From contig OZ024752.1 of assembly GCA_964016885.1 (NCBI GenBank), forward strand, positions 42,656,001-42,720,000: a stretch of 64,000 nucleotides of DNA, in the 5' to 3' direction. Shown in pieces: positions 11,484-64,000 of this stretch. Within the stretch, counting starts at the first letter, position 1. The number at the start of each line of letters is the position of its first letter. A model generated the notes under the pieces. It was not told the DNA's origin, searched no databases, and saw only the letters and a program-made list of their open reading frames with translations. The position numbers were made by a program, and so were the translations under genes. The DNA is from Eledone cirrhosa. Taxonomy: Eukaryota.

Positions 11484-11601
11484 TGGAAAGTGTATAGTTA
11501 ATAAACACACTGCTATATATATATATATATATATATAAATATATATATATATAGTTATAGTTATAGGAATAACCAAAGAGTGCTTAGAGATACATTGTTT
11601 T

Positions 11602-11654
11602 ATTAGCTCACAGTGTTTCATCCATACAGCATGGCAGGTATCTTCAGAGCCTAT
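11602..11654 (-). ncRNA. Hammerhead-like motif, probably inactive
   Basis: ggct-CTGAAGA...ccat/atgg...GAAAC-act-GTG-agct-AATAAA; GUG breaks the NUH cleavage rule. Confidence 0.55.
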
Positions 11655-11731
11655 AAACATGAAATATATATATATATACATATATATACACATACATATA
11701 TATATATTTATATATATATATATATACACAC

Positions 11732-11786
<55 letters not shown>

Positions 11787-11789
11787 GTA

Positions 11790-11960
11790 AAGGCGCATGG
11801 CTTAAGCTGAAAATGGATACCAGCAATAGCTGGAGGTTTAACCCTGCGATGGACTGGCGTCCTGTCCAGGGGGGAGTCTTGTATTCTCAGTCACTTCATG
11901 CCATGAAACCGGGATAAGCACCGCCCAAATGAGCTTTCTGGCTTAAGACCGACTTTTTTT
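11790..11960 (+). mobile_element. SINE fragment with a Meta/V-like domain
   Basis: ccctgcgatggactggcgtcctgtccagggggg...cttcatgccatgaaaccgggataag. Confidence 0.55.
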
Positions 11961-12307
11961 TTTTATATACTGTATATATATACCAGGGAGTATATAGTTA
12001 GAAAACGCACTGCCATATATATACTGGAGAGTGTAAAGTTAGTAAACATACAACTTCACTATATATATGCCAGAGAGTGTATATTTAGTAAACAAACTAC
12101 TTCAAAGTTGTTGAAAATGTTTCCATTGAGATAAATACTACATTAATCATGATTGACAGTAACTGTTATACAATATACTTAGTTGGATGTTATTGTAATG
12201 GACATATTTACCTAGAGAGGTCACTGGTGTATTTTACTTACATACACACTTGCACACAATATATATATATATATATATATATAACCAAATGAAAAAGATA
12301 TATGTAT

Positions 12308-12367
<60 letters not shown>

Positions 12368-12592
12368 CAGACATACATATGAAAAACTGAAAACAAAAAT
12401 GGAGAACAATTTTCAAAGAATGTGATTAGGTTAACACTTGTGTATGCATACACACACACACATACATACACATGCATATATATATATATATGCACTCTTT
12501 GTTATTGTTCTTGTTTTTTACTTATATATATACATATATATACACACACATATATTATATACATATATTATATATATGTATATATATAGTAA

Positions 12593-13279
12593 TATACGTG
12601 AACGGCAAAGCATAAACGAACTAAGGGAGAAATTAGGATAAGAGGGATCAGATGTTGTTTACTCGAGAGAAGGCTACGTTGGTATGGTCACGTGATGCGC
12701 ATGAAAGACGACAGCTGTATAAAAAAGTGCAGGGCAATAAAAATAGACGGCAACCACGGAGTAGGCAGACCCAGAAAAACCTGGGACGACTTGATAAATT
12801 CCGACCTCACACACTTACACCTCTCCAAGTCAATGTCACTGGACCGAGATCTTTGGCGCTACACAGTAATACAGAAGACCCGCCTTACCTAAGTACAATG
12901 TGAAACCTACTACAGTCAGTAGGCACCTCTAACAAAATACACCCCCGTCCCACTACCCCCACCCCATCCACACCACCCCCTTCAATGTGAAGTTATGTTG
13001 GTACCACAACATCCAGCCCGAAACAAATGAGGTCGTGTAGGTGTCACGACAAAAAAACACACAGTCCACGCTGTAATGTGGCCGTGTAGGTCACACGGTA
13101 AAAACCTCCCAGCCCCACACTGTAAACGTGGTTGGTGTTAGGAAAGGCATCCAGCCGTAGAAAACCCGCCAGACAGTCCTATACGAGCAAGACAACCACT
13201 CTTGCCTCAAGTGGGAAAACTCCCGTCCAAACCCATGCAAGCATGGAATATGGACGTTAAACGATGATGATGATGATGA

Positions 13280-13282
<3 letters not shown>
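12593..13282 (+). mobile_element. 5'-truncated RTE LINE (young family); copies at 15884-16422 (-), 30408-31018 (+), 51922-52571 (+)
   Basis: [12 protein letters not shown]...GRPRKTW ORF2 end, common 3' UTR, (GAT)n tail, variable 5' ends. Confidence 0.9.
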
Positions 13283-13344
<62 letters not shown>

Positions 13345-13715
13345 TATACATGTATGTATGTATGAAAGCAGATTTTATGTTTATTTTGTGCAAAAGGCAA
13401 TGCTGCAAGGAAGTGAGTCTTGGGTTCTGTGTGAAGGAGACCTACAAAGATTGGAAAGAAATGAAGTTTGCATGCTCTGAACTATGTGTACATAAATGGT
13501 GAATTGTTAATAAAATAAGAGAGAATTTGGGCATAAGTGTGGTAAGATCCTGTGTGCAGGAGAAGAGACTGTGGTAGAGTGGACATGTGATGTGTATGGA
13601 AGATAATAGCTGTATAAAAACAGCAGGGTACTTCAAGTTGGTGGAAACTATGGAAGAAGAAGAACTATAGAAGCTTGTAATGATGTAGTAAAAGGTAAAA
13701 GATGACCTCATACAA

Positions 13716-14580
13716 TTAACCATTTAGCATTTAAACCAGCCACATCCGGCCAGAATTCTCTCACCTCTTTCTGTTCAAACCGGCTGTAACTTGCTACTCA
13801 TACTGATGTTAAGGTATTGTTCTCAAAATAAATAATATCAAAATCTCAAAGATTCAATATTATGTGAGGTAAAGTGTTTACCTTGAAAATATAATAGTAA
13901 ATATAGAGTAATGTAAATGATAAAGGGTTAAACCAGCCAGAATTCTTTCTCCTGTTTCTGTTCAAATCAGCTGCACATACTGATGTTAAGGTATTGTTCT
14001 CAACATAAATAATATCAAAATCTCAAAGATTCAATATTATGTGAGGTAAAGTGTTTACCTTGAAAATATAATAGTAAATATAGAGTAATGTAAATGATAA
14101 AGGGTTAAACCAGCCAGAATTCTTTCTCCTGTTTCTGTTCAAATCAGCTGCACATACTGATGTTAAGGTATTGTTCTCAACATAAATAATATCAAAATCT
14201 CAAAGATTCAATATTATGTGAGGTAAAGTGTTTACCTTGAAAATATAATAGTAAATATAGAGTAATGTAAATGATAAAGGGTTAAACCAGCCAGAATTCT
14301 TTCTCCTGTTTCTGTTCAAATCAGCTGCACATACTGATGTTAAGGTATTGTTCTCAACATAAATAATATCAAAATCTCAAAGATTCAATATTATGTGAGG
14401 TAAAGTGTTTACCTTGAAAATATAATAGTAAATATAGAGTAATGTAAATGATAAAGGGTTAAACCAGCCAGAATTCTTTCTCCTGTTTCTGTTCAAATCA
14501 GCTGCACATACTGATGTTAAGGTATTGTTCTCAACATAAATAATATCAAAATCTCATAGATTCGATATTATGTGAGATAG
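13716..14580. repeat. 177-bp tandem array (about 4.5 units) of a piggyBac-type MITE
   Basis: gggttaaaccagccagaattc recurs at 13925, 14102, 14279, 14456. Confidence 0.9.
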
Positions 14581-14691
14581 ATATGTAAGGTAAAGCCTTT
14601 ACCATGAAATGGGTTAGGGTTAGGGTTAATATATATAGATATATATATATTATCGTCATCGTTTTACGTCTGTTTTTCCACACTTCCATGG

Positions 14692-14722
<31 letters not shown>

Positions 14723-14760
14723 CCGATATATTGTATTGGCTGATAGTACTTCTTGCGGTT

Positions 14761-14808
14761 TTGATTGCCCTGATGAGTCCTTAATAGGACGAAACATTGT
14801 TGGCTAAT
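14761..14808 (+). ncRNA. Minimal type I hammerhead ribozyme
   Basis: attgcc-CTGATGA-gtcct(taat)aggac-GAAAC-att-GTT-ggctaat: core, 5-bp stem II, minimal stem III, GUU site, bulged stem I; AATAAA follows. Confidence 0.75.
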
Positions 14809-14849
14809 AAAGACTTTTGATGTATTGAAGGCTTCTTTGTTTTATTTTC

Positions 14850-14893
<44 letters not shown>

Positions 14894-14968
14894 AATACAT
14901 ATTAATGTAGATATGTGTATATCAATATATGCTATTCCACTAAACAGTTATATATACATACACACGAA

Positions 14969-15784: not shown

Positions 15785-17488
15785 TATATATAATATATAT
15801 ATATACATACACACAAATACATATAAATGTAGACATGTGTATTATATATTGTCATTATGATTTTATTTTATGCATCATACATATCATCATCATCATCATC
15901 ATCATCGTTTAACGTCCGTGTTCCATGCTTGCATGGGTTTGGACGGGAGTTTTCCCACTTGAGGCAAGAGTAGTTGTCTTGCTCGCATAGGACTGTCTGG
16001 CGGGTTTTCTACAGTTGGATGCCCTTTCTAACACCAACCACATTTACAGTGTGGGACTGGGAGGTTTTTACCGTGTTACCTACACGGTCACATTACAGCG
16101 TGGACTGTGTGTTTTTTTGTCGTGACACCTACACGATCTCATTTGTTTTGGCCTGTATTTTGTGGCACCAACATAACTTTACATTGAAAGGGGGGGGTGG
16201 ATGGGGTGGGGGTGTATTTTGTTAGAGATGCCTACTGACTGTAGTAGGTTTTACTTTGTATTTAGGTAACGCGGGTCTTCTCTATTACTGAGTACCGCCA
16301 AAGCTCTCGGTCCAGTGACATTGTCTTGGAGAGGTGTAAGTGTGTGAGGTCGGAATTTATCAGATTGTCCCAGGTTTTTCTGGGTCTGCCTACTCCGTGG
16401 CTACCGTCTATCTTTATTGCCCTATATATATATATACCTGCGTATAATATACACACTACACATGCTAGCAGAAAACCACCCGAAGAGTGGTTTTTCTGCT
16501 AGTATATATAATATATATATATACATACACACAAATACATATAAATGTAGACATGTGTATATGAAAATATGACTATTCCACTAAACAGTTGTATTGATTC
16601 ACACAAGTCAGTGTCTATTTTTCTCTCTCTTTCTTATCTCTGTTATTGGTTGATTTGTTTATTTATATTTATAATTTGTTTATTTATATTTATAATTTGT
16701 TTATTTATATTTTGCACTTTCTTAGTTTCTAAGTTTGTTTCATGTACTCCACTATCTCAGTCTGAGAATGTCTAGTTTATTGTCATTAGACATCTATCAT
16801 CATCATCATCATCATTTAACTCTTTAGCATTTAAACCAGCCGTATCCGACCAGAATTCTCTCACCGTTTTCTGTTCAAACTGGCTTTAACTGGCCACTCA
16901 TACTGATGTTAAGGTATTTTTCTCAAAATAAATAATACCAAAATCTCTTAGATTTGATATTATGTGAGATAATTATGTGAGGTAAAGCCTTTACCATGAA
17001 AATACAACAGTAAATATAGAGTAATGTAAATGTTATGTGAGATAATTATGTGAGGTAAAGCCTTTACCATGAAAATACAACAGTAAATATAGAGTAATGT
17101 AAATGCTATGTGAGATAATTATGTGAGGTAAAGCCTTTACCATGAAAATACAACAGTAAATATAGAGTAATGTAAATGCTAAAAAGTTAATGTCCAGGGT
17201 TTTCCTGCTATGAAAAGTTCCACAGGTTATCCCAGACGAAGCCAGTACTCAGTTGGTGCTACTGACATCTCAGTTGGGCCAGCATCTCACACCTCACTTA
17301 CATACATTCTTGAACTCTACAGAGTGCACTGGGTGCATTTTATCGTTGCACCAGAACTCGGAGTGTTGTTATGTCTTTGATACAACTGAAAAGCCCTCTC
17401 ATCTTTTTGTTTCACAAGCTCTCTACAGCTGGATGCCCTTCCTATTACCAACCACTTTACAGAGTCTACTGGTTTACAGTTTGTGTGT

Positions 17489-17720: not shown

Positions 17721-19440
17721 TGTGTTTATATATGTGTGTGTGTGTGCCAATGTGGTTGGCATTAGGACAAGCATATCCAGATGTAAAAACCAAGCTCAAA
17801 ACAGTTCTGTATGAGCAAGAGTCATCTGATCTGGTTTGTCTCACGATGGGACAACTTGTTTAACTTATGATAATGTAGAAAAATGGATGCTAACTCTTTA
17901 GCATTTACATTACTCTATACATACTATTCTATTTTTGTGGTAAATATTTTATCTCACATAATATCGCACATAATATTGAATCTATGAGATTTTGAAAGTA
18001 TTTATTTTGAGAACAATACCTTAACATCAGTTTGAGCGACCAGTTACAGCCAGTTTCAACAGGAAGAGGTGAGAGAATTCTGGCCGCTTTGAACATTAGA
18101 GGGTTAACATCAGTATGAGTGGCCAGTTATGACCAGTTTGAACAGAAAGAGGTGAGAGAATTCTGGCCGGATATGGCCGGTTTAAATGCTAAAGGGTTAA
18201 ACACTGATGAGGATGGTGAGGAGGATATATGTGGCTGTGTGTGTGTTTATATACATATCATCATCATCATTTTACGTCCGCTTTTCCTTGCTTGCAAGGG
18301 TGGGACGGGAACTGATTCTGGCTTGATTTCTACAGCTGGATGCCCTTCCTAACACCAACCTCATTTACAGTGAGTGCAGAGTGCTTTTTTTTGCCGTGGC
18401 ACCTCCACGACCACTTTGCAGTGGAACGATAGGGACCCCAGTCCCTATCATCTCATTTCTACAGCTGAGTAAACTGGAGCAATGTGAAATAAAGTGTCTT
18501 GCTCAAGGAAACAACACATCACCCGGTCTGAGAATTGAACTCACAACCTTTCGATTGCAAGGCCAATGCTCTAACCACTAAGCCATGTGCCTCCATCATA
18601 TATATATATATATACACACACACAGGGTGTCCCCAAAAAGTCTATACGCACTTTGATTACATGTACAGGTAATATTTATTAAAATGCACAGTTTTTTCCC
18701 AAAATAAAATGATCTACAGACATAATTCTATTGTCTGTAAATACCCAAAAATGTTTACATAATTTAAATAATAAATATAAAATAGAATTTATTTTAATGC
18801 ATTTTTTTTTTGTGGTTGAAGTATGTATACATATTTTGGGACACCCTGTACATCATCATCATCATCATTTAACGTCTATCTTCCACGCTAGCATGGGTTA
18901 GACGGGAATTGTCCCATTTGAGGTAAGATTGGTCAGGTGACACACACACAACCACAGTAAAGTACTCAATATATAACAGAGTATAAATGTTTAATATAGA
19001 AACGCCTTCTACAAGACTAGAACTAATATTATCCTTCGAATAAAACAGTTCTAGACCTGTAGAAGCCATTTCTGTATTATATATATATATATATATACAG
19101 CAGCTGCCATATCACTCACTACAGTCATGTACTCCACCTAACAATAGCTCCCTTTGCCAATTAACCCTAATTATTTATTAATTAAATGCCATTGAATTAG
19201 ATGGCATTCTTTTGATTAATTTATCAGGCAGGCAAGGTGGAGTAGTCAGTGACTTTCACAGGTCCTTTAATGAAGCTAACAATTCTAGGTAACCACTAAG
19301 TATGTCAACACTGACTTAACTGTTTTGTTTTTCCTGCAGAAGGCGTCCTTGGGTATTCCTCTCCTACCCTTTATCTAATTTGTAAGAACTTCCATCTTCC
19401 CCGTTGACTTGAAGTTCTGGATAAAAAAATAATTTACTAC

Positions 19441-21120: not shown

Positions 21121-21295
21121 GGAGAAAGTATGACCCCGACGACAGAGCTCAAGCCGTTTCGACGGCTATTTCTGGACTAAAGTCAGAAATAGCCGTCGGG
21201 GTCATACTTTCTCCTATTACCCACTCTACTACCCTAAGTATTGAGCACTCTGGTGCGTTATGGTCCATCTGGTTCCTTACCACAACTTCTCCGTT
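21121..21295 (-). mobile_element. GC-rich foldback element between (TA)n tracts; related copy at 63607-63782
   Basis: Shared about 85-bp body plus a palindrome containing GAAACGGCTTGAGCTC. Confidence 0.6.
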
Positions 21296-21489
21296 ATATA
21301 TATCATCATCATCATCGTCGTTTAACGTCTATCTTCCACACTAGCATGGGTTAGGCGGGAATTGTCCCACTTGAGGCAAGATTAATCGGGTGACCGTGTC
21401 TCGCTCGTATAGGACTATATATATATATATATTGTCCGTTCCCTTGTCGTTTTAACTGGGATTGCCTCGGGAACGTAACCTTATGTACG

Positions 21490-21567
21490 AAGCTGTCTGA
21501 TGATGTCACGGCACTGGGTACACGGAATCGTGTGGCCACTGTCGTCATTGAAATATGTATCAGTCTT
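21490..21567 (+). ncRNA. Hammerhead-like motif with long stem II
   Basis: CTGATGA 21497-21503, extended hairpin, GAAATATGTATC 21550-21561, AATAAA 21571; stem I imperfect. Confidence 0.5.
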
Positions 21568-21597
21568 ATCAATAAAAGTAGTTTCAGATGTTAAAGT

Positions 21598-21657
<60 letters not shown>

Positions 21658-38500: not shown

Positions 38501-39538
38501 TTTTGCCATGACACCTACATGGCCACTTTACAGTGTGTGCTGGGTGCTTTTTGCCATGACACCTACATGGCCACTTTACAGTGTGTGCTGGGTGCTTTTT
38601 GCCATGACACCTACATGGCCACTTTACAGTGTGTGCTGGGTGCTTTTTGCCATGACACCTACATGGCCACTTTACAGTGTGTGCTGGGTGCTTTTTGCCA
38701 TGACACCTACATGGCCACTTTACAGTGTGTGCTGGGTGCTTTTTGCCATGACACCTACATGGCCACTTTACAGTGTGTGCTGGGTGCTTTTTGCCATGAC
38801 ACCTACATGGCCACTTTACAGTGTGTGCTGGGTGCTTTTTGCCGTGACACCTACATGGCCACTTTACAGTGTGTGCTGGGTGCTTTTTGCCGTGACACCT
38901 ACATGGCCACTTTACAGTGTGTGCTGGGTGATTTTTGCCATGACACCTACATGGCCACTTTACAGTGTGTGCTGGGTGCTTTTTGCCATGACACCTACAT
39001 GGCCACTTTACAGTGTGTGCTAGGTGGTTTTTGCCGCAACACCTACATGGCCACTTTACAGTGTGTGCTGGGTGCTTTTTGCCGCAACACCTACATGGCC
39101 ACTTTACAGTGTGTGCTGGGTGCTTTTTGCCATGACACCTACATGACCACTTTACAGTGTGTGCTAGGTGCTTTTTGCCGCAACACCTACATGGCCACTT
39201 TACAGTGAAAAGACTGTACTAATGTTATATAAATACTACAACAGCCCATGTTTGAAGATAAAGTTTATAGAACTAAAAATAAACATTGAAACAGTGTCAG
39301 AGAGTAGTAGACAGATATATAGGCACATCAACAACTTAGCATTTAAAACCTGTTGAACAATGTAACATTGCTTGTAACAGATGGCATGTTATAGGTATAT
39401 ATATATATATATCTACACATATATATATATACATATATATACATACATATATATATATACACATATGTATATATATACATATATATATATATACACATAT
39501 GTATATATATACATATATATACATACATATATATATCT

Positions 39539-41654: not shown

Positions 41655-43308
41655 TTTAGATACCAATGTTGCTTGAATTCAGCTCTTTGTAATAATTTTC
41701 TGCACAGAGTTACAGGCACTCCCTTCTCAGTTTTGTCACCAGAAACAACAGTATACCAGTAATTGGGCTGCTTGTAAATTGTAACTAACAATAGTGGAGG
41801 CACATGGCTCAGTGGTTAGAGCATTGGCCTTGCAATCGAAAGGTTGTGAGTTGAATTCTCAGACCGAGTGATGTGTTGTTTCCTTGAGCAAGACACTTTA
41901 TTTCACATTGCTCCAGTTTACTCAGCTGTAGAAATGAGATGATAGGGACTGGGGTCCCTATCATTCTACTGCAAAGTGGTCGTGGAGGTGCCACGGCAAA
42001 AAAGCACCCAGCACTCACTGTAAATGAGGTTGGTGTTAGGAAGGGCATCCAGCTGTAGAAATCAAGCCAGAATCAGTTCCCGTCCCACCCTTGCAAGCAG
42101 GGAAAAGTGGACGTAAAATGAAATGATGATGATGATGATGATGATGAATAACTGGTATTCAACAATTGCGAAATGGAAAAATAAACAAAAGCTACAATGC
42201 AAGCTAAACCTTATAAAAGGGGAGATAATAAAAAAATTAGCTAAACCTATCCACAGAATTTTGTGTATTAAGCTTAATTGCTATAAATTAATGTTTTGTG
42301 TCTTGTCTCTTACTCCACTGGACAGCGTTTGGCTTCTGTCAGACACTGTGGACCTGGGTGGACTAGCAGTACCATTGTTAGGGGTCGAAACTGCCAAAGT
42401 TCATCTCAAAGGTCGATAACCATGGAGTTCTGTACCCTGCATTTGTATATTTATTAAAAAAAAAAAAAATTTTAAGGTTTTTTTTCCCCTTAACTTACAT
42501 CATTTATTCAGGTTGGGAATGTCTGAGCAGAAGTGTAAGATATTGTCATGGCTTACACCTATGAAGGTTTAACTAGAGAACCAATACTGAGTGGAGCTAG
42601 CATCAGTTTGGCCGGATCCGAGGCGGAGGAGTAGAGACCATAGAAGTAGTTTCTGGTAATATTTTTAAAGCTGTCTAGATTTGAGAGGTGGCAAACTGGC
42701 AGAGCTGTTAGAATGTTGGAGAGATGGTTTTATGGTAGTCGTTTAAGTTCACTGATCTCCGAGTTCAAATTTTGCTTTTCATTCTTCTGAGGTCAATAAA
42801 GTACCAGTCCAGTCCCGAGATCTCTCTCCCTCTCCCAGGAAGTAATTGGCTGTTCTCAGACTTGGAGAAGGAAGAACTCTGCCAGGATTAAATATCCATG
42901 ACCCAATACTAGTATATCTGGATGGCACCTTTAGAACTCAATCAGGAGTTAAGGGTGTTTGGACAGATTTTGTAAAATTGAAACATATATATATAATAAA
43001 AAGATATAGCCTTTTATTATATATATAAGAAAAATGGAGTGCTGCGTGGTTGTTGCACATGGGTTACATATGAATAAAATTAGTCCTTCATCAGTGATCT
43101 TCCAACCTTCATTGGTATTTCATTGATTTAAAAATCATATACCTCTGGTTGGTGCGAGCAGTAACTAAATAAAGTTATTGGGACAAGTAAAATAGGGTGA
43201 AGCGAGTGAGACATGTAAACAAACAAAGATGGTATTGCAACAGAAAGATAGGAAGAGACAAGTACATGATATCTATAAGCTTAAGCTTGGTGAAATCATG
43301 GACGAGAG

Positions 43309-43350
<42 letters not shown>

Positions 43351-43923
43351 TCATTTCATCATCATTTCATTTTACGTCCGCTTTTTCCCTGCTTGCAAGG
43401 GTGGGACGGGAACTGATTCTGGCTTGATTTCTACAGCTGGATGCCCTTCCTAACACCAACCTCATTTTACAGTGAGTGCTGGGTGCTTTTTTGCCGTGGC
43501 ACCTCCACGACCACTTTGCAGTGGAATGATATGGACCCCAGTCCCTATCATCTCATTTCTACAGCTGAGTAAACTGGAGCAATGTGAAATAAAGTGTCTT
43601 GCTCAAGGAAACAACACATCACCCGGTCTGAGAATTGAACTCACAACCTTTCGATTGCAAGGCCAATGCTCTAACCACTAAGCCATGTGCCTCCATATGT
43701 GTGCGTATATATATATATATATATACGCACACATAATTGTTTCTACGTTTGCCACAAGGCCAGCAATTATCCCAGTGTATTACTGGTACTTTATTTTATC
43801 GACCCCCTAAGGATGAAAGGCAAAGTTAACCTCGGCGGGATATGAAATCAGAATGGCAGGGGCCGTAACTCTATACGTCAAAGCATGGCATCCAACCCTC
43901 CACCGATACTGCCAATCCACCGC

Positions 43924-43986
<63 letters not shown>

Positions 43987-44504
43987 ATAAAAGGATGATT
44001 TGTTATGTCTTCATTATGTTTATTGAGTGGTGACGTATGTTTCGCTATTGATCAGCTCAAGGTTCGATCTGTATTGATCTGGCCCCACTATGGAATCAAA
44101 AGCTCGTTGGGCCTCTGTTGTGGTAATGACAGAATGAACTGCATGTTACACTCTCTAGATATATATATATATATATATATATATATGGTTTGAGTGTTGC
44201 ACTTACAATTGTGAGGTTGTGAGTTCAATTCCCAGACTGGGTAATGTGTTGTGTCGTTGAGCAAGACACTTTATTTCACGTTGCTCCAGTCCACGCAGCT
44301 GTAGAAGTGAGTTGCGACGTTACAGGTGCCAAGCTGTATCGGACATTGCCTTTCTCTTGGACAATATCAGTGGTGTAGAAAAGGGAGACTGATATGCATG
44401 GGTGACTGCTGGTTGGCCTTCCACAACCAACTTTGCCCAGACTTGTGCCTCGGAAGGGGAACTTTCTAGGTGCAAATCCCATGGTCTTGTGTGACCGAAG
44501 GGGG

Positions 44505-44564: not shown

Positions 44565-47500
44565 TATACAATATATTAAAAATGGAAACTATATTTATAA
44601 AACCATAAATATTTTATTATATATATTTCAAGGGCTACCAAGGCAGTCTTGGTGCGCTTTCATCAGATAAAATACAAGATTTGTTTTATAAATATTGACA
44701 TAACCGTGGAAAAACTCGAGTAATCTGTTGAGTGCTTTATATCAGTTAGAAACTTTTAAGCTTGTTGGAATCCCAACAAATTAAATATAACTTCTGCATG
44801 TATATATACATATCATCATCATTTCATTTTACGTCCGCTTTTCCCTGCTTGCAAGGGTGGGACAGGAACTGATTCTGGCTTGATTTCTACAGCTGGATGC
44901 CCTTCCTAACACCAACCTCATTTAGAGTGAGTGCTGGGTGCTTTTTTTTGCCGTGGCACCTCCACAACCACTTTACAGTGGAATGATAGGGAACCCAGTC
45001 CCTATCATCTCATTTCTACAGCTGAGTAAACTGGAGCAATGTGAAATAAAGTGTCTTGCTCAAGGAAACAACACATCACCCGGTCTGAGAATTGAACTCA
45101 CAACCTTTCGATTGCAAGGCCAATGCTCTAACCACTAAGCCATGCCTCAAAGTAAAGTAAAATGTTTTTTGACTTACGATGATGTCATCTTGAGTAACAA
45201 TTGGGTGAAGATTGGTAACCAACACACGGTAGCCAGATGAAGATGAGGAATTGGAGAGAATGTCAGAAGAAAACTGAAACAAATCAAATGTTATTTCCAA
45301 TTAGAGAATGAGAAGACAAAAAATCTGAAATTCATAGCTCATGCTTATGTATGTAATGATGCTAAGTAAATGAGTCGCGAATATTCTTTGCTTTACTCAG
45401 GACTTTATTACAGAAGCAATGACAAAAAAAAGTTCTTAGCATGTCTAAGTCCATGAGTGCGCCATTTGCAAAGTGCCGAAAGAGCTTTGATGTTTAACGA
45501 AGAAGAGTTCCGCAACAAAGGGAGATAAGGGGCGAGCATGTACGCTCTATTGTATAAGCACATAAGAAATACAATCGATGAAATGACGATTTGGTAGAGA
45601 ACAAATGAACAAATGGTAAACTGCATGCAACATGGAATGGAACTAAAACAACAACAATGGAACATGCACAGCCCGAGTCATGCATGTGGAGTAGCAGAGA
45701 AGGTTGGAAAGAACAGGAATTTAGAATGATCCAATCGGTTAGTTGAGAAGAGACAATGAATCAGAGAAGACGATAGAAATAGAGCCAGTGGTAAATGTTG
45801 TGAAGAGAAATGGAAATGGTTGGGTCATGTGTTGAGGAAGAAGGATAGAAGTGACTCGGTGAGAAGAATAGAATCAGTGATGAATGCTGAAAAGAGATAT
45901 TTGGGCGATGTGTTGAGGATGGATGAATGGTGTGACGAGAAATGGAATGTGATGGTTGAGTCATGTGGTAAGGAAAGATGAATGTGATGACTGTTGTGCA
46001 CAGAGTTGGAATGAGATACCTGGGTGGAGATAGTTGAGGAAAGATGAAAGCGGCAGGGTGAGAGAAGTGATGGAAATAGAAAACCAAGAAATATATAGCT
46101 GGGGGGTGATAAAAGGGGAAAGGAAAGCCAGAGGTTGCAACCAAGAAATATATAGCTGGGGGTGATAAAAGGAGAAAGGAAAGCCAGAGATTGCAGACAA
46201 ACAAGAAATATATAGCTGGGGGTGATAAAAGGAGAAATGAAAGCCAGAGATTGCAGACAAACAAGAAATATATAGCTGGGGGTGATAAAAGGAGAAAGGA
46301 AAGCCAGAGATTGCAGACAAACAAGAAATATATAGCTGGGGGTGATAAAAGGAGAAAGGAAAGCCAGAGATTGCAGACAAACAAGAAATATATAGCTGGG
46401 GGTGATAAAAGGAGAAATGAAAGCCAGAGATTGCAGACAAACAAGAAATATATAGCTGGGGGTGATAAAAGGAGAAAGGAAAGCCAGAGATTGCAGACAA
46501 ACAAGAAATATATAGCTGGGGGTGATAAAAGGAGAAAGGAAAGCCAGAGATTGCAGACAAACAAGAAATATATAGCTGGGGGTGATAAAAGGAGAAATGA
46601 AAGCCAGAGATTGCAGACAAACAAGAAATATATAGTTGGGGGTGATAAAAGAAGAAAGGAAAGCCAGAGATTGCAGACAAACAAGAAATATATAGTTGGG
46701 GGTGATAAAAGGAGAAATGAAAGCCAGAGGGTTCGGGAGGAGGTTGCAGTCAAGAAATATATAGCTGGGGGGTGATAAAAGGGGAAAGGAAAGCCAGAGG
46801 TTGCAGCCAAGAAATATATAGCTGGGGGTGATAAAAGGAGAAAGGAAAGCCAGAGGTTGCAGCCAAACAAGAAATATATAGTTGGGGGTGATAAAAGGGG
46901 AAATGAAAGCCAGAGGTTGCAGCCAAGAAATATATAGATGGGGGTGATAAAAGGGGAAATGAAAGCCAGAGGTTGCAGTCAAGAAATATATAGATGGGGG
47001 TGATAAAAGGGGAAAGGAAAGCCAGAGGTTGCAGCCAAGAAATATATAGATGGGGGTGATAAAAGGGGAAAGGAAAGCCAGAGGTTGCAGACAAGAAATA
47101 TATAACTGGGGGTGATAAAAGGGGAAAGGAAAGCCAGAGGTTGCAGCCAAGAAATATATAGCTGGGGGTGATAAAAGGGGAAAGGAAAGCCAGAGATTGC
47201 AGACAAACAAGAAATATATAGCTGGGGGTGATAAAAGGAGAAAGGAAAGCCAGAGGTTGCAGACAAACAAGAAATATATAGCTGGGGGTGATAAAAGGGG
47301 AAAGGAAAGCCAGAGGTTGCAGACAAACAAGAAATATATAGATGGGGGTGATAAAAGGGGAAAGGAAAGCCAGAGGTTGCAGACAAACAAGAAATATATA
47401 GCTGGGGGTGATAAAAGGAGAAAGGAAAGCCAGAGATTGCAGACAAACAAGAAATATATAGCTGGGGGTGATAAAAGGAGAAAGGAAAGCCGGAGATTGC

Positions 47501-50500
47501 AGACAAACAAGAAATATATAGCTGGGGGTGATAAAAGGAGAAAGGAAAGCCGGAGATTGCAGACAAACAAGAAATATATAGCTGGGGGTGATAAAAGGAG
47601 AAAGGAAAGCCGGAGATTGCAGACAAACAAGAAATATATAGCTGGGGGTGATAAAAGGAGAAAGGAAAGCCAGAGATTGCAGACAAACAAGAAATATATA
47701 GCTGGGGGTGATAAAAGGGGAAAGGAAAGCCAGAGGTTGCAGACAAACAAGAAATATATAGCTGGGGGTGATAAAAGGGGAAAGGAAAGCCAGAGGTTGC
47801 AGACAAACAAGAAATATATAGCTGGGGGTGATAAAAGGGGAAAGGAAAGCCAGAGGTTGCAGACAAACAAGAAATATATAGCTGGGGGTGATAAAAGGGG
47901 AAGGAAAGCCAGAGGTTGCAGACAAACAAGAAATATATAGCTGGGGGTGATAAAAGGGGAAAGGAAAGCCAGAGGTTGCAGACAAACAAGAAATATATAG
48001 CTGGGGGTGATAAAAGGGGAAAGGAAAGCCAGAGGTTGCAGACAAACAAGAAATATATAGCTGGGGGTGATAAAAGGGGAAAGGAAAGCCAGAGGTTGCA
48101 GACAAACAAGAAATATATAGCTGGGGGTGATAAAAGGAGAAAGGAAAGCCAGAGGTTGCAGACAAACAAGAAATATATAGATGGGGGTGATAAAAGGGGA
48201 AAGGAAAGCCAGAGGTTGCAGACAAACAAGAAATATATAGCTGGGGGTGATAAAAGGAGAAAGGAAAGCCAGAGGTTGCAGACAAACAAGAAATATATAG
48301 ATGGGGGTGATAAAAGGGGAAAGGAAAGCCAGAGGTTGCAGACAAACAAGAAATATATAGCTGGGGGTGATAAAAGGGGAAATGAAAGCCAGAGGTTGCA
48401 GCCAAGAAATATATAGCTGGGGGTGATAAAAGGGGAAAGGAAAGCCAGAGGTTGCAGACAAACAAGAAATATATAGATGGGGGTGATAAAAGGGGAAAGG
48501 AAAGCCAGAGGTTGCAGACAAACAAGAAATATATAGATGGGGGTGATAAAAGGGGAAAGGAAAGCCAGAGGTTGCAGACAAACAAGAAATATATAGATGG
48601 GGGTGATAAAAGGGGAAAGGAAAGCCAGAGGTTGCAGACAAACAAGAAATATATAGATGGGGGTGATAAAAGGGGAAAGGAAAGCCAGAGGTTGCAGACA
48701 AACAAGAAATATAAAGCTGGGGGTGATAAAAGAGAAAAGGAAAGCCAGAGATTAGGGAGCCAATAGAGAAAAATTATCGATGTTCGTTGTTGTTGATATT
48801 AAGAGTAGACTGATGGTCACGCGGGAATTACTTACCTGGTCATGTGAGTCAACATTGCTTGCAGGTTTCATGCGTTTCGTTGCTGAGGGAACAACCCCAA
48901 AATCTCTGGACTGCCGAGGAAATTTGATAAGACTGTCCCGATCTAAAGGTAAGGAAGATTTCGATGGATTGCTACCCACTTCATATTTGTCTCGACGATT
49001 CATCGACGGAGGAGAGAGTACAGAACTGTTGCTAAGCCGTAACGACCATGGAGATGATGATGATGATGATGATGATGACTGTTGTTGTTGTGGTGGTGGT
49101 GGTGGTGGTGGTGGTGGTGGTGGTGGTGGGGATGATGGTGATGTCATATGTCTAGCAGAGGAGGTGAGAGAGGAGTAACCGGAAGTACTCAAATGTTCAT
49201 AATCATAGTCTATGGGGGCTTTGGGGGCTGGCATCTTCTCCCGGTAATGATCATTCTTCAGTTGTATAACAGGACCCCTCAAGGGTTCGTATGTAGCGAT
49301 GTTGGATCTTTCATCACTCTGAAATAGTTGCAAAATGTAAAAATTAAAGTGATCAGAAACTATAAAAACAGATTTAACACTTTCACCAGCAAGTGTGACA
49401 TTGTTGAACCCATGAAATACAGATAGGGACTTCAAAACAGTTTCTTTCTACCCAATTTCACTCACAATGCTTGGATTAACCCTTTAATGTTCAAACCGGC
49501 CAGAATTCTCTACCTCTTTCTGTTGAAACTGGCAGTATCTGGCCACTCATACTGATGTTAAGGTATTGTTCTGAAAATAAATACTTTCAAAATCTTATAG
49601 ATTCGATATTATGTGAAATAAAGCCTTTACCATGAACATACAATAGTATAAATAGAGTAATATGAATGCTGAAGGGTTAAGCCAAGACTATGTTAACCCT
49701 TTAGCATTTAAACCGGCCGTATCTGGCCAGAATCCTCTCACCTTTCTTTTCAAACTGGCTGCTCATACTTATGTTACGGTATTGTTCTCAAAATAAATAA
49801 TATCAAAATCTCATAGATTCGATATTATGCGAGATAATTACCATGGAAATATAATAGTAAATATAGAGTAATGTAAATACTAAAGTGCTGAACAAAGCCC
49901 AAGATGCCCCACAGTGGGAGATCGAAGCTGAGAGTTATGATTGAGAAGCAAACATTTTAACCATTCAGCCACGTTATGTTCAAAACACAGATATGCATAC
50001 ACACACACACAGATATGTATACACAGATACACACACACAGATACGCATACACACACACTCACATGGGTAGCTGAGATGAGATTTTTTTTTTTAGTTTAGT
50101 TTTTTAACATATTTACCTTGTTTGGAACATTTAATCTATTGGGAATATTTTTATTAATCTGAAGTCTTTTATTGGTGTCAATTTGTGAACGGAGGTGTAG
50201 TGAGCTGACATCAAATTGGGAGGTCATTGCACCAGCATTTGGTGACAGAATACCACTGTCAGATGGTGCTAACTCATTGGTCAACTGAAATACAACAGAA
50301 ATTTTAGGTCCCGAAATATTAGGACAGAAGAAAGAACAGCAACAACAAACAAAACAAAAGATTACCAGGTAACTTACTTTTTCGTTACCTCATCTTACTA
50401 TCCATTTTACATTGTTTAGCCTTATACCTCTTTCCACATTATATCTCATATACAATGCTTCAAGCAAACTACATTTTATTATAACAAGATTATTTACATA

Positions 50501-53500
50501 ATAATTACCCATGCTGTCAACAATGATAACAATAGCCTTATGTTTAAATTTTGGAGTCCAGGATTGTCATCTAGTCTAGCAGTGGAGCCTTTTCCTGATA
50601 CAACTGGGCCTCTATCATTGGCATACCTAAAACCTAGTGATTGGCATTCTCATATGAGGCTAGCTAAACCTGTATGGGTGTGAGCTGTAACAACAACATG
50701 ATAGAACTGGGGGTCCCCACCTATCATTAAACCAATCAAGAAACTTCCTATAAGATGTAATCTTGTGGAAGGCCAGTTTAACCTACATGTAAGCATAAAT
50801 AAATGTCTGTGATTTTAAATAACTTGCATTTCAACATTAGTTGACACATGGACGAGACACATTTGTTTGAAAACTTACTCAGAAAGAACTCCATAATGAG
50901 TATAAAGCCTGTCAAGGGGCCTAAGACCTGAAAGGTTTAACCCTTGCACTTGCAGGGAAAATGGCTTTAACCCTTTAGCATTTAAACCGGCCAGAATTCT
51001 CTCACCTCTTTCTGTTCAAACTGGCTGTAACTGGTCACTCATACTGTCATTGAGGTATTGTTCTCAAAATAAATAATATCAAAATCCCATAGATTCAATA
51101 TTATGTGAGATAATTATGAGGGATAAAGCCTTTACTGCGAAAATACAATAGTATATATAGAGTACTGTAAATGCTAAAGGGTTAAAATGCTTGTTGTTGT
51201 GTTGTCACAACGTATAAAGTCATCGTTGTTTTGTATCAGATTTTCCCCTACCCCATGTATAAAGTCACCATTGTTTTGTATCAGATTCTCCATACATCAT
51301 GCTAGCCTACATTATTTAACATCACAAGGCATTCATACTAATGTACTTTCATTTTTGCCTCTCCCTACTTTTTTCTGCTCTGGATAAATGGTAAACTTTG
51401 TATGATCAAAACCAGACAACACAATATAGTTTTTAATGACACCAATTTACTGCCAATAGACAAAGCAAGCAAAAAGTAAAATTAAACTGAAAACTTACAG
51501 TTCTCTTTAGACTCACACCAACATCACCTGATGAGTGAAGTCTTGATTGATGTCTGTTATTCACCTAGCAATAAGATAATATATATATATAAGTGTGTGT
51601 GTAAAAAGTAAACAGAAATAACAAAGCAAACAACACAATACTATAAAGAAATATATTAGTTAAATGCTCATTTATATATATTTGGTAGGTTTTTGCCTAA
51701 ACTTTTCCTACATTTGCTAAAACCTATCACAGTATCTTGTCAGTATATTTATGTATAACATTCAATGTTTTTATATATATATCATTGTCATCACCATTTT
51801 ACGTCAATTTTTCCATGCTAGGGGAAGTGAAAGATGCGCTGTGCTGTGCTGAATATGCCCCGTCCCACCCTTACAAGCAGGGAAAAATGATGGTGAGGAT
51901 GATATATATATATATATATATATAGACGGTAGCCACGGAGTAGGCAGACCCAGAAAAACATGGGACGAGCTGATAAATTCCGACCTCACACGCTTACACC
52001 TCTCCAAGACAATGTCACTGGACCGAGACCTTTGGCGGTACTCAGTAATAGAGAAGACCCGCCTTACCTAAATACAAAGTAAAAACCTACTACAGTCAGT
52101 AGGCACCTCTATCAAAACACACCCCCGTCCCACCACCTCCACACCGCCCCTTTCAATGTAAAGTTATGTTGGTCCCACAACATCCAGGCCGAAACAAATG
52201 AGATCGTGTAGGTGTCACGACAAAAAAACACACAGTCCACGCTGTAAATGTGGCCGTGTAGGCAACACGGTAAAAACCTCCCAGCCCCACACTGTAAATG
52301 TGGTTGGTGTTAGGAAGGGCATCCAGCTGTAGAAAACCCGCCAGACAGTCCACGCTGTAATGTGGCCGTGTAGGCAACACGGTAAAAACCTCCCAGCCCC
52401 ACACTGTAAATGTGGTTGGTGTTAGGAAGGGCATCCAACTGTAGAAAACCCGCCAGACAGTCCTATGCGAGCAAGACAACCACTATTGCCTCAAGTGGGA
52501 AAACCCCCGTCCAAACCCATGCAAGCGTGGAACACGGACGCTAAACCTGATGATGATGATGATGATGATGATAAATACTTGTTTCTACTTTAGGCACAAG
52601 GCCAGCAATTACCCAGTGCATTACTGGTACTTTATTTTATCGACCCCGTAAGGATGAAAGGCAAAGTCAACCTCGGCGGGATTTGAACTCAGATCGTAAA
52701 GGGACGTAACTATGCTTGAAAGCATGGCGTCCGACCCTCTACCGATACTGCCAATCCACCGCATATATATAAATACTGATTACATTACAAATCTCCATAT
52801 ACACACAAACATATGCAAAGATTCTTTACTCCAATACACAAAAAAAAAAGAAGAAAAAAAAAAACGATATTTACTGTCCGGATAATATTGGCTCCAGCTG
52901 TAGCAATTTTCCCTGATACAGACTCCTTAAAGGGTTGAGGTTTTCCTAAACCCATTATTGTCACCTTGGGGCTGTTTGAACTATTGAGATTTAATTTGTG
53001 ATTCATGATAATTTTCTTTCTTGCATCTTGAACATATTTCTTTGCCTGTGAGTTCTGAATTTTCTGTCTAGCATCAACCACATTACTTCCAATTTTCTCC
53101 CTGGCATCTTTGAAGGATTTTGAGGACAGTTTTAAGCGGGCATCAAACTGAAGTAAGGGTGGCTTTCGTTGTGGAACTTTAGTATGTTGATTGTAAACCT
53201 GTTGTTTATGACTTGTAGGAATCTGACTACTGGTACCACTGAGCCGTTGTTTAACTGGTGTTCTCTGATTTGAATGGTAAAGTGGCTTCCTTGTTATAGG
53301 TTTGCGAGAAGTTAATGTGCTTTTCAATAATGGCTGTGAACGTTTATTTTTCCAAGGTTTTCCCTGCCTGAAATTAAATCAAATTGAAGAAAATATTTAA
53401 TAAATTTAAATAAAATGATATCTGAAAGTGATGGATTTGAAAATGAATTATGCTAATGAATGAAAACATAATATTCAAATTTTCATTATCATATCTTGAT

Positions 53501-56430: not shown

Positions 56431-56489
56431 AATTACATTGTCACCACTAAAGCATATGAAAACATATTGTTTCTTGTATATAGTGAATT

Positions 56490-59123: not shown

Positions 59124-59378
59124 CAAGGGTCTTGTTTCAGTGGGGTACCACTTTTTCAAACGTCTATATTTTATTTTTTGTTTATTTGATATAATAAATT
59201 ATTTTTAAGCTTATTTTTTTTATATCTGAACTTCATTTGAATATACAAAATTTAATTAGCGTAAAATTTTACATATGTGATAGGGTCTGGGAAAGGCACC
59301 ATAAGCAATTATGCTCTTTTAAGAATCAACAAATGTAGGTTTGTACCCCTCACATTTTAAAGGCAAACGAGGCCCCTG
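59124..59378. mobile_element. hAT-type MITE nested in a piggyBac-type MITE (59098-59573)
   Basis: TSD cattactc at 59116-59123 and 59379-59386; homologous to 24298-24584. Confidence 0.85.
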
Positions 59379-59836: not shown

Positions 59837-59869
<33 letters not shown>

Positions 59870-61730: not shown

Positions 61731-62020
61731 TGCTGAATCAACTGGCTCTTTATGATCTGAGTTCAAATCCCGCCGAGGTTAACTTTATCTTTCATCCTTA
61801 CGGGGTCGATAAAATAAAGTACCAATGATACACTGGTGTAATTGCTGACCTTGGGCCAAAAGTAGAAACAATTATTTGGAAACAGTTGCTTCTAATTGGA
61901 CCCATTGGAAAGAAAGAATGTTTGAAGATTCTGCATTCGCGGCCATCTGGGGAATAAGACGAAGAAGAAGAACCAAAATATATTGTTGCTTTCATAAAAT
62001 ACCTAGGCATTTGCCGGGTC

Positions 62021-62051
62021 CCTCTGCTAGTAAAATGCGAATGAAAGAAAG
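62021..62051 (+). mobile_element. Helitron 3' terminus
   Basis: Hairpin-like cctaggcatttgccggg, then CTAG|T about 8 nt later. Confidence 0.45.
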
Positions 62052-62089
62052 GAAAGGGTGAGAAGAGAAGAAAGGAAGAGTAAGAATAC

Positions 62090-62220
62090 AATACGTAAGT
62101 AGGTCATTAGAATGACAGCAGTTTGAATAATGTACGCATGCGTGGGAATGTGGAAGCGTTGACTTCCGGTTCTATTTGTATATTCTATTGCTTGGCGTAC
62201 TGAATGAGTAGGTTAGCGTA
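62090..62220. promoter_or_regulatory. Probable housekeeping-type promoter of a neighbouring gene
   Basis: NRF1-like ACGCATGCGT (about 62135-62143) and ETS ACTTCCGGT (62162-62170), with plus-strand donor-like GTAAGT and GTTAGC nearby. Confidence 0.4.
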
Positions 62221-62606
62221 TACACTGGTAATAATTGAAGAGAAAAAGGTCAGTGCGCGTATATTTTTTTGGTGTATATCTCTTTTCATTCACTACTTAG
62301 TATTTTTACTCCAATATATATATATATTGTATATATTTGGACAGTTTTATCATTTTTCCATCTATGTTTATCGTTGTTGTGTTTTTTTGGCAATTAGATT
62401 ACCATTAATTACTGACGTGTGTGTGTGTGGTGATTCACAGGTGAAAACTATACATTAGATCTAGTTGTTTAGATGAGATGAAACAACATATTTGAAAATC
62501 AAACATACACACACCGTCTAGTGAGTTCGTAAGAAGACTAACTGTATAAGATCGCCCTGCTGTTGAAGAAAAATGTTTAGTAGGGAAAATGCTAATGGTG
62601 TGTGTA

Positions 62607-62654
<48 letters not shown>

Positions 62655-62656
<2 letters not shown>

Positions 62657-62873
62657 TTCCGGGTTCAATCGGGGGTAACGCCAGTAAGTAAAGTACTCAA
62701 TACATAGAGTATTTACAAGATTTAATACAGGAATGGCTTCTACAGGACTAGAACTATTTCATTCGAAGGAAATCATCAGGGCTTTCGTGATGATTTCATC
62801 ATCAGTTCCTGATGATTTCATACAAATGAAACAGTTTTAGTCCTGTAGAAGCTTTTTCTATATTAAATCTTCG

Positions 62874-62875
<2 letters not shown>
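62655..62875. mobile_element. Palindromic TA-inserted element with inverted CTGATGA..GAAA..GTC motifs (Penelope pLTR-like); related copy at 18955-19078
   Basis: Inverted arms of about 60 bp; AAAGTACTCAATA motif; (TA)n flanks. Confidence 0.5.
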
Positions 62876-62907
<32 letters not shown>

Positions 62908-63400
62908 GGTAAAGAAATGTTACACTCTAATCAACATGTATTGAGTGCTTATTCAATTTATGTTTGAATATAAGTACAGGCAGATTTTGACAACAAATGT
63001 GATAGGTCTTATACAGCGGAAAATAGGATACTTAGAAGAAGGTGGGAACTATTTCAGATATGTACTTTGTTAGGCTTCGTGCTGTTTAGTTTGTCTATTA
63101 TTTTCGGGGTGTTTTGATCATATTTCCCTAATTATTATTACATATTTACTACTTTTCAGTTAACTTCTTCCCTTTCACTCGAGTTAAAATAATACGTTAC
63201 AATATATATATGTATATATATATATATACATTTGATCACACACATACATACATACATACATACATACATGCATGCATGCATGCATGCATGCATGTGTGTG
63301 ATGCCAAAATGGGACAAAAACTAGGAAGACTAGGTTTTATATATATATATATAAATGAAGGTATAGAAATTGTTTTAGCGAGAAGCTAATAGTATTCTAT

Positions 63401-63446
<46 letters not shown>

Positions 63447-63571
63447 GAGAAGAGGTTACAATATATATATATATTTATGTATGTCTTACCATTCTAACAA
63501 TGCTAAGTGAACAGCTTATTGGGCAATTCTTTAAGACGTCGTACCCTAATTCTCTCTCTCTACATACACAC

Positions 63572-63606
<35 letters not shown>

Positions 63607-63608
<2 letters not shown>

Positions 63609-63782
63609 CGAAGGAAATGTGGTAAGGAACCAGATGGACCATAACGCACCAAAGTACTCAATACTTAGGGTAGTAGAGTGGGTAATAGGAACGAGTAGGA
63701 CCCCGACGGCTGAGCTCAAGCCGTTTCGCCAGAATTAGCCGTCGAAACGGCTTGAGCTCAGCCGTCGGGGTCCCACTCGTTC
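63607..63782 (+). mobile_element. GC-rich foldback element, same family as 21121-21295
   Basis: Near-perfect inverted repeat of about 40 bp (63689-63782); (TA)n flanks. Confidence 0.6.
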
Positions 63783-63849
63783 ATATATATATATATATAT
63801 ATATACACAATATATTAATAAATGGAAACTATATTTATAAAACCATATT

Positions 63850-63915
63850 TATTTTATTATACATATTTCAAGGGCAACCAAGGTAAATTATGGTGCGCTT
63901 TCATCAGATAAAATA
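63850..63915 (-). ncRNA. Minimal type I hammerhead ribozyme, same family as 44610-44674
   Basis: Same core and stem I; differences fall mainly in loop II, distal stem II and loop III. Confidence 0.72.
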
Positions 63916-64000
63916 CAGATTTGTTTTATAAATAAATATTGACATACCCGGAAAAAAAGACAACCTTAACGGTTGGAGCTTCCTGGATAGTATATATATA

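What the first reader, a model, noticed from the sequence alone, without database searches (positions are those of the whole stretch)
11550..63992. Several unrelated 110-230 bp elements at (TA)n tracts share a minimal hammerhead ribozyme architecture
Seen: at least five sequence-distinct short inserts (11552-11663, 14719-14852, 21432-21600, 43985-44160, and 44568-44800 with its relative 63808-63992) lie in or beside (TA)n runs. Each reads stem I-CUGANGA-stem II-GAAA-tiny stem III-NUH-stem I (some decayed), mostly followed at once by AATAAA. Two more palindromic families (62655/18955 and 21121/63607) carry inverted or half motifs. Many share an AAG(T/C)ACTC motif (11578, 18960, 21240, 44730, 62690, 63652). 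Known: minimal type I hammerheads that cleave as dimers occur in Penelope-like element pLTRs and in retrozymes. Inference: a diverse, TA-associated population of non-coding ribozyme retroelements (solo pLTR or retrozyme-like) at roughly one per 7 kb, invisible to ORF annotation.
Basis: partly seen in the sequence, partly recalled or inferred. Interest (0 to 1): 0.85.

Follow-up and report, generated by a model that had tools for sequence, protein, structure and literature searches.

The report
Penelope retroelement stumps carrying hammerhead ribozymes
These short inserts are broken-off tail ends of Penelope-type jumping genes that sit in TA repeats and carry a predicted self-cutting RNA, which is a known arrangement; the new detail is a small shared hairpin that likely marks where copying starts.

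Summary
The inserts and hammerhead motifs are real. Only three window copies (14764, 44610, 63850) keep an intact type I fold. The seven families are not independent non-coding retrozymes. They are 5'-truncated 3' ends (pLTRs) of Penelope-like elements. Longer copies of four families run into a Hydra-clade ORF, a 77% relative does so for a fifth, and two are unlinked. Head-to-tail repeats are rare (4 of 803 arms); inverted pairs are common (204). Hydra elements with hammerheads in (TA)n are published (PMC8557442).

Three additions:
(1) The 'AAG(T/C)ACTC' motif is, at 5 of 6 sites, the reverse strand of a 2-nt-bulged hairpin behind the ribozyme. All seven families have it, and copies end either just before it or well after it. 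It likely sets where reverse transcription starts.
(2) Two abundant lineages carry damaged cores (C3·A8, U4C).

This scan reported all of these except (2) before, on other DNA. Cleavage and expression are untested.

The parts
11554..11664 (-). Family B pLTR stump, short-end type; hammerhead 11605-11652 with the triplet decayed to GUG
   Evidence: same-strand Hydra-type ORF 1918 nt upstream plus an inverted pLTR in L139
14719..14853 (+). Family A pLTR stump, short-end type; intact minimal type I hammerhead 14764-14808 (GUU triplet, bulged stem I)
   Evidence: ORF ends 1564-1611 nt upstream in 8 of 8 extended loci, and L134 holds three pLTRs in tandem
18950..19077 (-). Family F fold-back stump, hammerhead core lost; bulged hairpin 18964-18982
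21121..21296 (+). Family G fold-back stump holding only 3' pieces of the hammerhead; hairpin 21223-21246 with one change
21432..21600 (+). Family C pLTR stump; long-stem-II hammerhead 21492-21563 lacking 2 nt at the cleavage site, with a small inversion after AATAAA
   Evidence: family shares about 1.2 kb of non-coding upstream sequence, ORF link not shown
43028..43317 (-).
43983..44159 (-). Family D pLTR stump; long-stem-II hammerhead 44025-44115 with a decayed core (family mode is the U4C variant)
   Evidence: family upstream sequence joins a Hydra-type endonuclease ORF in L354, L342 and, inverted, L333
44568..44800 (-). Family E inverted composite: intact hammerhead 44610-44674 on the minus strand, joined to the tail on the plus strand with a damaged hairpin 44714-44733
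   Evidence: a 77% relative flanks a Hydra-type ORF in L147
62653..62874 (-). Family F fold-back stump with two opposed, junction-damaged hammerheads (62735-62782 minus, 62805-62852 plus) and hairpin 62695-62710
   Evidence: intact F hammerheads in L148 and L238; ORF link not shown
63608..63783 (-). Family G fold-back stump: 3' half of the hammerhead 63699-63728, hairpin 63656-63679, tail
   Evidence: full hammerhead and an upstream Hydra-type ORF in longer copies
63806..63990 (-). Family E relative; intact hammerhead 63850-63915

Best explanation
The inserts are 5'-truncated 3' ends (pLTRs) of several Penelope-like element families that sit in (TA)n, each carrying a predicted type I hammerhead followed by a shared bulged hairpin, and they were likely made when reverse transcription primed at a TA target started at fixed internal points next to that hairpin and stopped early. 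Shown: fixed 3' ends, variable 5' ends, Hydra-type ORFs upstream in longer copies of A, B, D and G, two end classes on either side of the hairpin, and frequent inverted pairs. Inferred steps: (1) a tandem pLTR-ORF-pLTR copy is transcribed; (2) the RT/GIY-YIG protein binds the bulged hairpin (two copies in the full-length RNA of family A); (3) it nicks (TA)n and starts cDNA about 6-12 nt 5' of hairpin 1 or hairpin 2, giving the short end and the tailed end; (4) priming on both target strands joins two short cDNAs into the palindromes. The hammerhead is likely a passenger in these stumps, able to cut mainly as a dimer in tandem transcripts.
For: Copy structure: 10 of 30 A loci share at least 1,488 nt upstream and 3 of 25 B loci share at least 1,400 nt. 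The A ORF ends 1564-1611 nt upstream in 8 of 8 extended loci. G: ORF about 1.2 kb upstream in 5 of 30 loci. D: 3 loci. B: 1 of 5 extended loci. E: a 77% relative in L147.

Clade: the family A protein shows RWR, DKT, CxCx5C, CxxC and CxH, and no CCHH (RWR and DKT read by eye from the DNA). These are the Hydra hallmarks in PMC8557442 section 11. GIY-YIG passes the Pfam cut-off in L134.

Arrangement: 4 head-to-tail against 204 inverted pairs among 803 arms.

Hammerhead structure: E clan, 16 sequences, 97.9% of cells paired, 24 two-sided cells against 7.4 shuffled (0/500), including the stem III palindrome.

Hairpin: 35 in the 400-kb sample against 1-9 in 10 shuffles. Of 697 arms, 273 have it whole, 386 end before it and 38 are partial. 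A second copy lies 6-8 nt behind the long end in full-length A. It is visible by eye in published Hydra-2_Amil and Hydra-1_Ajap. Internal initiation at two sites and a dispensable hammerhead were shown for a Poseidon element (PMC11167929).
Against: C and F were not tied to an ORF, and E only through a relative. Pfam found no RT domain in 8 translated pieces, and no tree was built. In the E clan stem I has no two-sided change, and 8 of 500 shuffles reached the observed number of covarying pairs; those sequences were picked by a core-containing pattern. The hairpin descriptor enforces pairing, so its family-to-family covariation is partly by construction. About half of the 35 sample hits are family G, and bulge-free hairpins were more numerous (48) than any bulged class (not examined). 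The twin arrangement was seen in only 1 of the 7 families, plus 2 other families. Loci were chosen by similarity to short queries, so class proportions are biased. No enzyme or RNA data.
Confidence: 0.88

Rival explanations
1. The seven families are retrozyme-like non-coding elements that replicate through small circular or tandem RNAs cut by their own hammerheads.
For: Most copies are short and ORF-less, and cores are well kept in A, B, C and E. Animal retrozymes derive from pLTRs and include monomers (10.64898/2026.07.22.740005, parts 1-2).
Against: Only 4 of 803 arms are head-to-tail within 600 nt. 5' ends vary and run into ORFs. Copies end 15-60 nt or more past the cleavage site, not at it.
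Confidence: 0.06
2. The fold-back stumps (E, F, G) are themselves re-copied as whole short units, a SINE-like second tier that uses the PLE protein.
For: G makes about 19 loci in 400 kb, nearly all short. Several dispersed copies share a junction, and two arm differences are one-sided (6 vs 0 and 7 vs 1 among the 90 palindromic copies counted).
Against: Junctions take dozens of forms and both arms carry the same subfamily variants. Long parents exist. One-sided differences would also arise from a tandem master whose two pLTRs differ. Shared junctions were enriched by my query.
Confidence: 0.2
3. They are solo pLTRs left by recombination between the two pLTRs of full-length elements.
For: Each retains the pLTR part with its hammerhead and lacks the ORF (one search finds no ORF hit in the window).
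Against: Recombination would give family-fixed 5' ends. Observed 5' ends range from a few bases to over 1.5 kb, and many copies are fold-backs.
Confidence: 0.03
4. The motifs are chance matches in AT-rich repeats.
For: With a wide descriptor the window count alone was reached by a shuffle. Several window copies are decayed.
Against: 31 hits against 0-2 in the 400-kb sample, covariation, and the same position in published PLEs.
Confidence: 0.01

Closest known systems
Hydra clade of C-terminal EN+ Penelope-like elements (Craig et al. 2021, PMC8557442; passages, section 11 and supplement tables S1/S2 plus sequence passages read)
   Same: RT followed by GIY-YIG, DKT, CxCx5C linker, no CCHH, type I hammerhead in the pLTR, (TA)n insertion, tail at one end, inverted 5' copies. 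The U.U pair closing stem II is already in their hammerhead table, and an octopus member (Hydra-1_Obim) is listed.
   Different: New families. Family A reads RWR rather than RWK and has a 3' non-coding region of about 1.6 kb. Stem II regions of 45-65 nt occur in C, D and G. The bulged tail hairpin is present in two of their consensus sequences but was not mentioned in the parts I read.
Minimal type I hammerheads of PLE pLTRs (Cervera and de la Pena 2014, PMC4209133; parts 1-2 of 4 read)
   Same: Many sequence-distinct families per genome, mostly single motifs attributed to truncated PLEs, opposite-strand pairs 100-700 bp apart, palindromic stem III, U3-A8 variant.
   Different: Density looks far higher here: a rough 2 x 10^5 motifs against about 4,000-9,000 in coelacanth and Xenopus, with different descriptors. 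F and G have 4-6 bp stems III. A C3.A8 core is not among the variants in the passages I read.
Poseidon element PAc of Anolis (Frangieh et al. 2024, PMC11167929; parts 1-2 of 4 read)
   Same: Two internal start sites that define the tail, AT-rich targets, both strands nicked and extended, hammerhead not needed for insertion in vitro.
   Different: Different clade. Its starts lie in an AC-rich stem-loop inside the ORF, whereas here the ends lie just 5' of a conserved bulged hairpin in the non-coding leader.
Non-LTR retrozymes of animals (Li, Clavereau, Pollet 2026, 10.64898/2026.07.22.740005; parts 1-2 of 5 read)
   Same: Non-coding, type I hammerhead, pLTR-related.
   Different: Defined by tandem units each with a hammerhead, which families A-G lack. 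Family H has tandem units but a permuted hammerhead.
Type-SGC non-circularly permuted hammerheads (Eckert et al. 2023, PMC10085705; passages read), for family H only
   Same: Block order site-GAAA-CUGANGA, with stems I and III crossing.
   Different: Found there in metagenome and metatranscriptome data, not in an animal repeat. Here stem II is not one helix: its two halves each pair with an upstream strand.

Membership tests
Penelope-like element (EN+) | RT plus GIY-YIG ORF upstream of the pLTR in longer copies | tested here: met
   A 8 of 8 extended loci, G 5 of 30, D 3, B 1 of 5
Penelope-like element (EN+) | Same ORF link for families C, E and F | tested here: inconclusive
   E only through a 77% relative (L147). 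C: one decayed ORF beyond a microsatellite. F: none in L148, L363 or L364
Penelope-like element (EN+) | Partial tandem and inverted arrangement, tail at one end | tested here: met
   L134, L139, L147, L366; two end classes in all seven families
Hydra clade | DKT, CxCx5C linker, CxxC/CxH, no CCHH | tested here: met
   Family A. Linker and endonuclease motifs also in the ORFs linked to B, G and the E relative
Hydra clade | N-terminal RWK motif | tested here: inconclusive
   Family A reads RWR (by eye); not seen for the other families
Hydra clade | Phylogenetic placement of the RT | not tested
   No reference proteins were available as tool sequences; similarity to the published alignment judged by eye
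Hydra clade | (TA)n insertion preference | tested here: met
Type I hammerhead ribozyme | Core, three stems and NUH at family level | tested here: met
   A, B, C, E, F canonical; D modal core U4C; G U3-A8 or C3.A8
Type I hammerhead ribozyme | Self-cleavage as monomer or dimer | not testable with these tools
   needs in vitro transcription
Non-LTR retrozyme (families A-G) | Head-to-tail short units, each with a hammerhead | tested here: not met
   4 of 803 arms
Non-LTR retrozyme (family H) | ORF-less tandem unit with a hammerhead in each unit | tested here: met
   unit of about 600 nt, partial tandems in L010 and L302, terminal redundancy in L089
Non-LTR retrozyme (family H) | Type I hammerhead and circular RNA | tested here: not met
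   the fold is S-G-C permuted, not type I; circular RNA could not be tested
Type-SGC hammerhead (family H) | S-G-C order with covarying stems I and III | tested here: met
   15 sequences, 96% of cells paired, 12 of 30 pairs with two-sided change, 0/500
Type-SGC hammerhead (family H) | Stem II formed directly between blocks C and G | tested here: not met
   each half pairs with an upstream strand instead; those two helices show little covariation
Naiad clade (family H) | Link to an N-terminal-EN ORF | tested here: inconclusive
   no such ORF upstream of 21 copies; five H motifs did not match a Naiad consensus in the Craig supplement

The most novel reading that the evidence does not exclude
Hydra-clade Penelope elements share, across families and phyla, a twin 2-nt-bulged hairpin that is the protein's recognition signal and fixes both internal start sites of reverse transcription, while the hammerhead is dispensable, since lineages with C3.A8 and U4C cores still spread widely. 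The same TA niche also holds an ORF-less tandem retroelement with an active non-circularly permuted hammerhead, a form so far described only outside animal genomes.
Probability: 0.45. Interest if true: 0.7.

Novelty: new member of a known kind. Interest (0 to 1): 0.42.

Why it matters
The headline is known biology: Penelope pLTR hammerheads in (TA)n. The extras make open questions testable. What sets the internal start of Penelope reverse transcription is not known in general; the bulged hairpin gives a small mutable candidate with exact predicted start points. Whether the hammerhead helps or merely rides along can be tested with natural core variants that amplified anyway. Family H would extend non-circular hammerhead permutations to an animal repeat. 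For annotation, a rough 10^5 such stumps are largely invisible to Rfam (1 sub-threshold hit in this window).

Tried and rejected

A pattern search for an intact G hammerhead that assumed a perfectly paired stem II found 0. A longer-arm query returned fold-back or short truncated copies only. The intact form was found through an unselected sample copy.

ADAR editing of the palindromes was considered after note e1-8806526. Arm mismatches are balanced transitions (33 G.T, 31 A.C), many at CpG, with no A-to-G excess, so it was rejected.

The U.U pair closing stem II looked new but is published (PMC3088659 section 8; Craig File S2). U3-A8 and U4C are also published.

A MAFFT alignment of the hairpins was unusable, and two of its 17 rows had wrong coordinates. 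The family F alignment was not counted because fold-back junctions corrupt stem I. The BLAST end mapping ran into TA flanks for C and E and was redone by class. The family A core tally failed through a pattern error, so A's core is. Pfam gave nothing for four window ORFs.

Literature: searches for a description of the hairpin returned no paper describing it; most subscription papers are outside the library. Lunse et al. 2017 was seen only as cited in PMC6765202 (passages). bioRxiv supplements were closed and may bear on the retrozyme comparison. The species was not determined; 'octopus' and 'cephalopod' were search terms on a hunch.


Full report
Observation. The window is repeat-rich animal DNA (contig C12 of a 3.0-Gb assembly) with no Penelope ORF hit. 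All inserts are at the stated places, in or beside (TA)n. I name them A (14719), B (11554), C (21432), D (43983), E (44568 and 63806), F (62653 and 18950) and G (63608 and 21121). A strict type I descriptor finds 2 window hits against a mean of 0.015 in 200 shuffles. A wider one finds 2 against 0.11, with one shuffle or more reaching 2. In 40 evenly spaced 10-kb stretches the wider descriptor finds 31 hits in 399,600 bases against 0-2 in 20 shuffles: 5 in the 200 kb from the six first contigs and 26 in the other 200 kb. 24 of 31 are within 150 nt of (TA)6+ against a 20.9% background. Only A, E and the E relative are intact in the window. B has GUG, C lacks 2 nt at the site, D's core is decayed, F's motifs are damaged at the fold-back junction, and G holds only the 3' half.

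What they are. Each family has about 960-5,400 first-look candidates in the genome, of which 40 were scored per search (not copy numbers). Copies share 3' ends and differ in 5' length. For A, all 8 extended loci show an ORF ending 1564-1611 nt upstream, and L134 has three pLTRs in tandem around an RT/GIY-YIG ORF. That protein has RWR, DKT, YRDD, CxCx5C, CxxC and CxH and lacks CCHH. This matches the Hydra clade of PMC8557442, whose members carry hammerheads and insert in (TA)n and include an octopus family. B links to such an ORF in 1 of 5 extended loci, G in 5 of 30 loci, D in 3 loci, and a 77% relative of E in L147. C shares about 1.2 kb of non-coding upstream sequence and F up to about 0.8 kb, but neither was tied to an ORF. 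Among 803 arms in all loci held, 4 are head-to-tail within 600 nt and 204 pairs are inverted. So A-G are truncated pLTR ends, not retrozymes as defined in 10.64898/2026.07.22.740005.

The hammerheads. In the E clan (16 sequences) 97.9% of cells pair, with 24 two-sided cells against 7.4 in shuffles (0/500). The changes lie in stem II and in the self-complementary stem III, as a dimer would need; stem I has one-sided changes only. Canonical cores: B 30 of 32, C 54 of 60, E 54 of 55, F at least 45 of 62. D's commonest core is the U4C form (20 of 65 matches, some spurious). A relative of D has the canonical core and a compensated stem II. G's full motif has a long stem II. Its core is U3-A8 in 6 of 42 copies and C3.A8 in 34, but 30 loci were picked with a C3.A8 query, so the ratio is biased. 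U3-A8, U4C and the U.U closing pair are published. I did not see C3.A8 in those passages. That a lineage with this mismatch is abundant and 99% alike suggests, by inference, that cleavage is not needed for spread, as shown in vitro for PAc. A working ribozyme in the master's other pLTR is not excluded.

The shared motif. Read on the ribozyme's strand, 5 of the 6 'AAG(T/C)ACTC' sites are the 3' arm of a hairpin, RCUC - upper stem - 2-nt bulge - GAGY, 25-63 nt behind the cleavage site. It is present in the tails of all seven families. It occurs 35 times in the 400-kb sample against 1-9 in 10 shuffles; about half are family G. It occurs in 18 families with two or more copies. Bulges TT, CT, TA and TC gave 26, 13, 11 and 9 hits, the other 12 dinucleotides 0-4, and bulge-free hairpins 48. 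Of 697 arms, 386 end before the hairpin (mostly 3-18 nt before it), 273 hold it whole and 38 are partial. In full-length A a second hairpin follows the long end at the same 6-8 nt spacing as the first follows the short end, and two other families also show twins. By eye the same hairpin is in the published Hydra-2_Amil and, twice, Hydra-1_Ajap. Two paper searches found no description of it. An earlier scan note (e1-9568397) gave me this lead and its reading; I tested position and enrichment here.

Mechanism. Shown: the anatomy above. Inferred: the protein made from a tandem copy binds the hairpin, nicks (TA)n and starts cDNA just 5' of hairpin 1 or hairpin 2. Early stops give 110-300 bp stumps, and priming on both strands gives palindromes with one short and one tailed arm. 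This fits the two start sites and two-strand extension reported for PAc. I put the identity at 0.88 and the hairpin's role at about 0.55. Re-copying of palindromic stumps as whole units is possible in addition (0.2).

43028-43317 (minus strand, TA on both sides) belongs to a family H in which the cleavage site comes first, then GAAA, then CUGAUGA. A six-helix crossed structure pairs in 96% of cells across 15 sequences, with 12 of 30 pairs changed on both sides (0/500). The structure was drawn from these sequences, and the two helices that replace stem II show little covariation. The order is that of type-SGC hammerheads (PMC10085705). H is an ORF-less unit of about 600 nt found in partial tandems and lacks the bulged hairpin. 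The window copy is partial and has two changes in one helix. Earlier notes tie this fold to Naiad elements; I could not confirm that.

Verdict. Real and correctly spotted, but mostly a known system: new Hydra-clade families. The hairpin, the damaged-core lineages and family H add testable points. The scan had already noted the system, the hairpin and the permuted fold on other DNA. No cleavage or expression was shown.

Noticed in passing
   Followed up: partly
window 62905-62990 (+): Lone bulged hairpin (62924-62946) with a tail-like remnant right after a TA tract, probably an old stump of a further family.
   Followed up: no
window 16437-16511: Small palindrome between TA tracts, possibly another fold-back stump.
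   Followed up: no
window 9649-9706, 18528-18585, 43628-43685, 45085-45142, 41805-41862, 37243-37300: Weak tRNA-like matches (23-28 bits, below the gathering score), likely heads of an abundant tRNA-derived SINE.
   Followed up: no
window 21571-21600: The family C copy has a 30-nt micro-inversion right after AATAAA relative to its family.
   Followed up: no
L199-L238 (400-kb sample): At least eight further type I hammerhead families, including a U3-A8 family and one with an 18-nt stem III hairpin; density was five times higher outside the six first contigs.
   Followed up: partly
L270-L299: Young family G lineage (99% alike) fixed for a C3.A8 core, with U3-A8 in sister copies.
   Followed up: partly
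many loci, e.g. L006, L008, L009, L027, L177: Stumps of different families are stacked in the same TA tract, and tRNA-type SINEs often abut family D ends.
   Followed up: no
window 10170-11369, 31569-32639, 37779-39218, 45825-48773: Long open frames that are translations of minisatellites, not genes.
   Followed up: no
window 48752-49447 (-), 52785-53378 (-): Non-repetitive open frames, possibly exons of a host gene; no Pfam match.
   Followed up: partly
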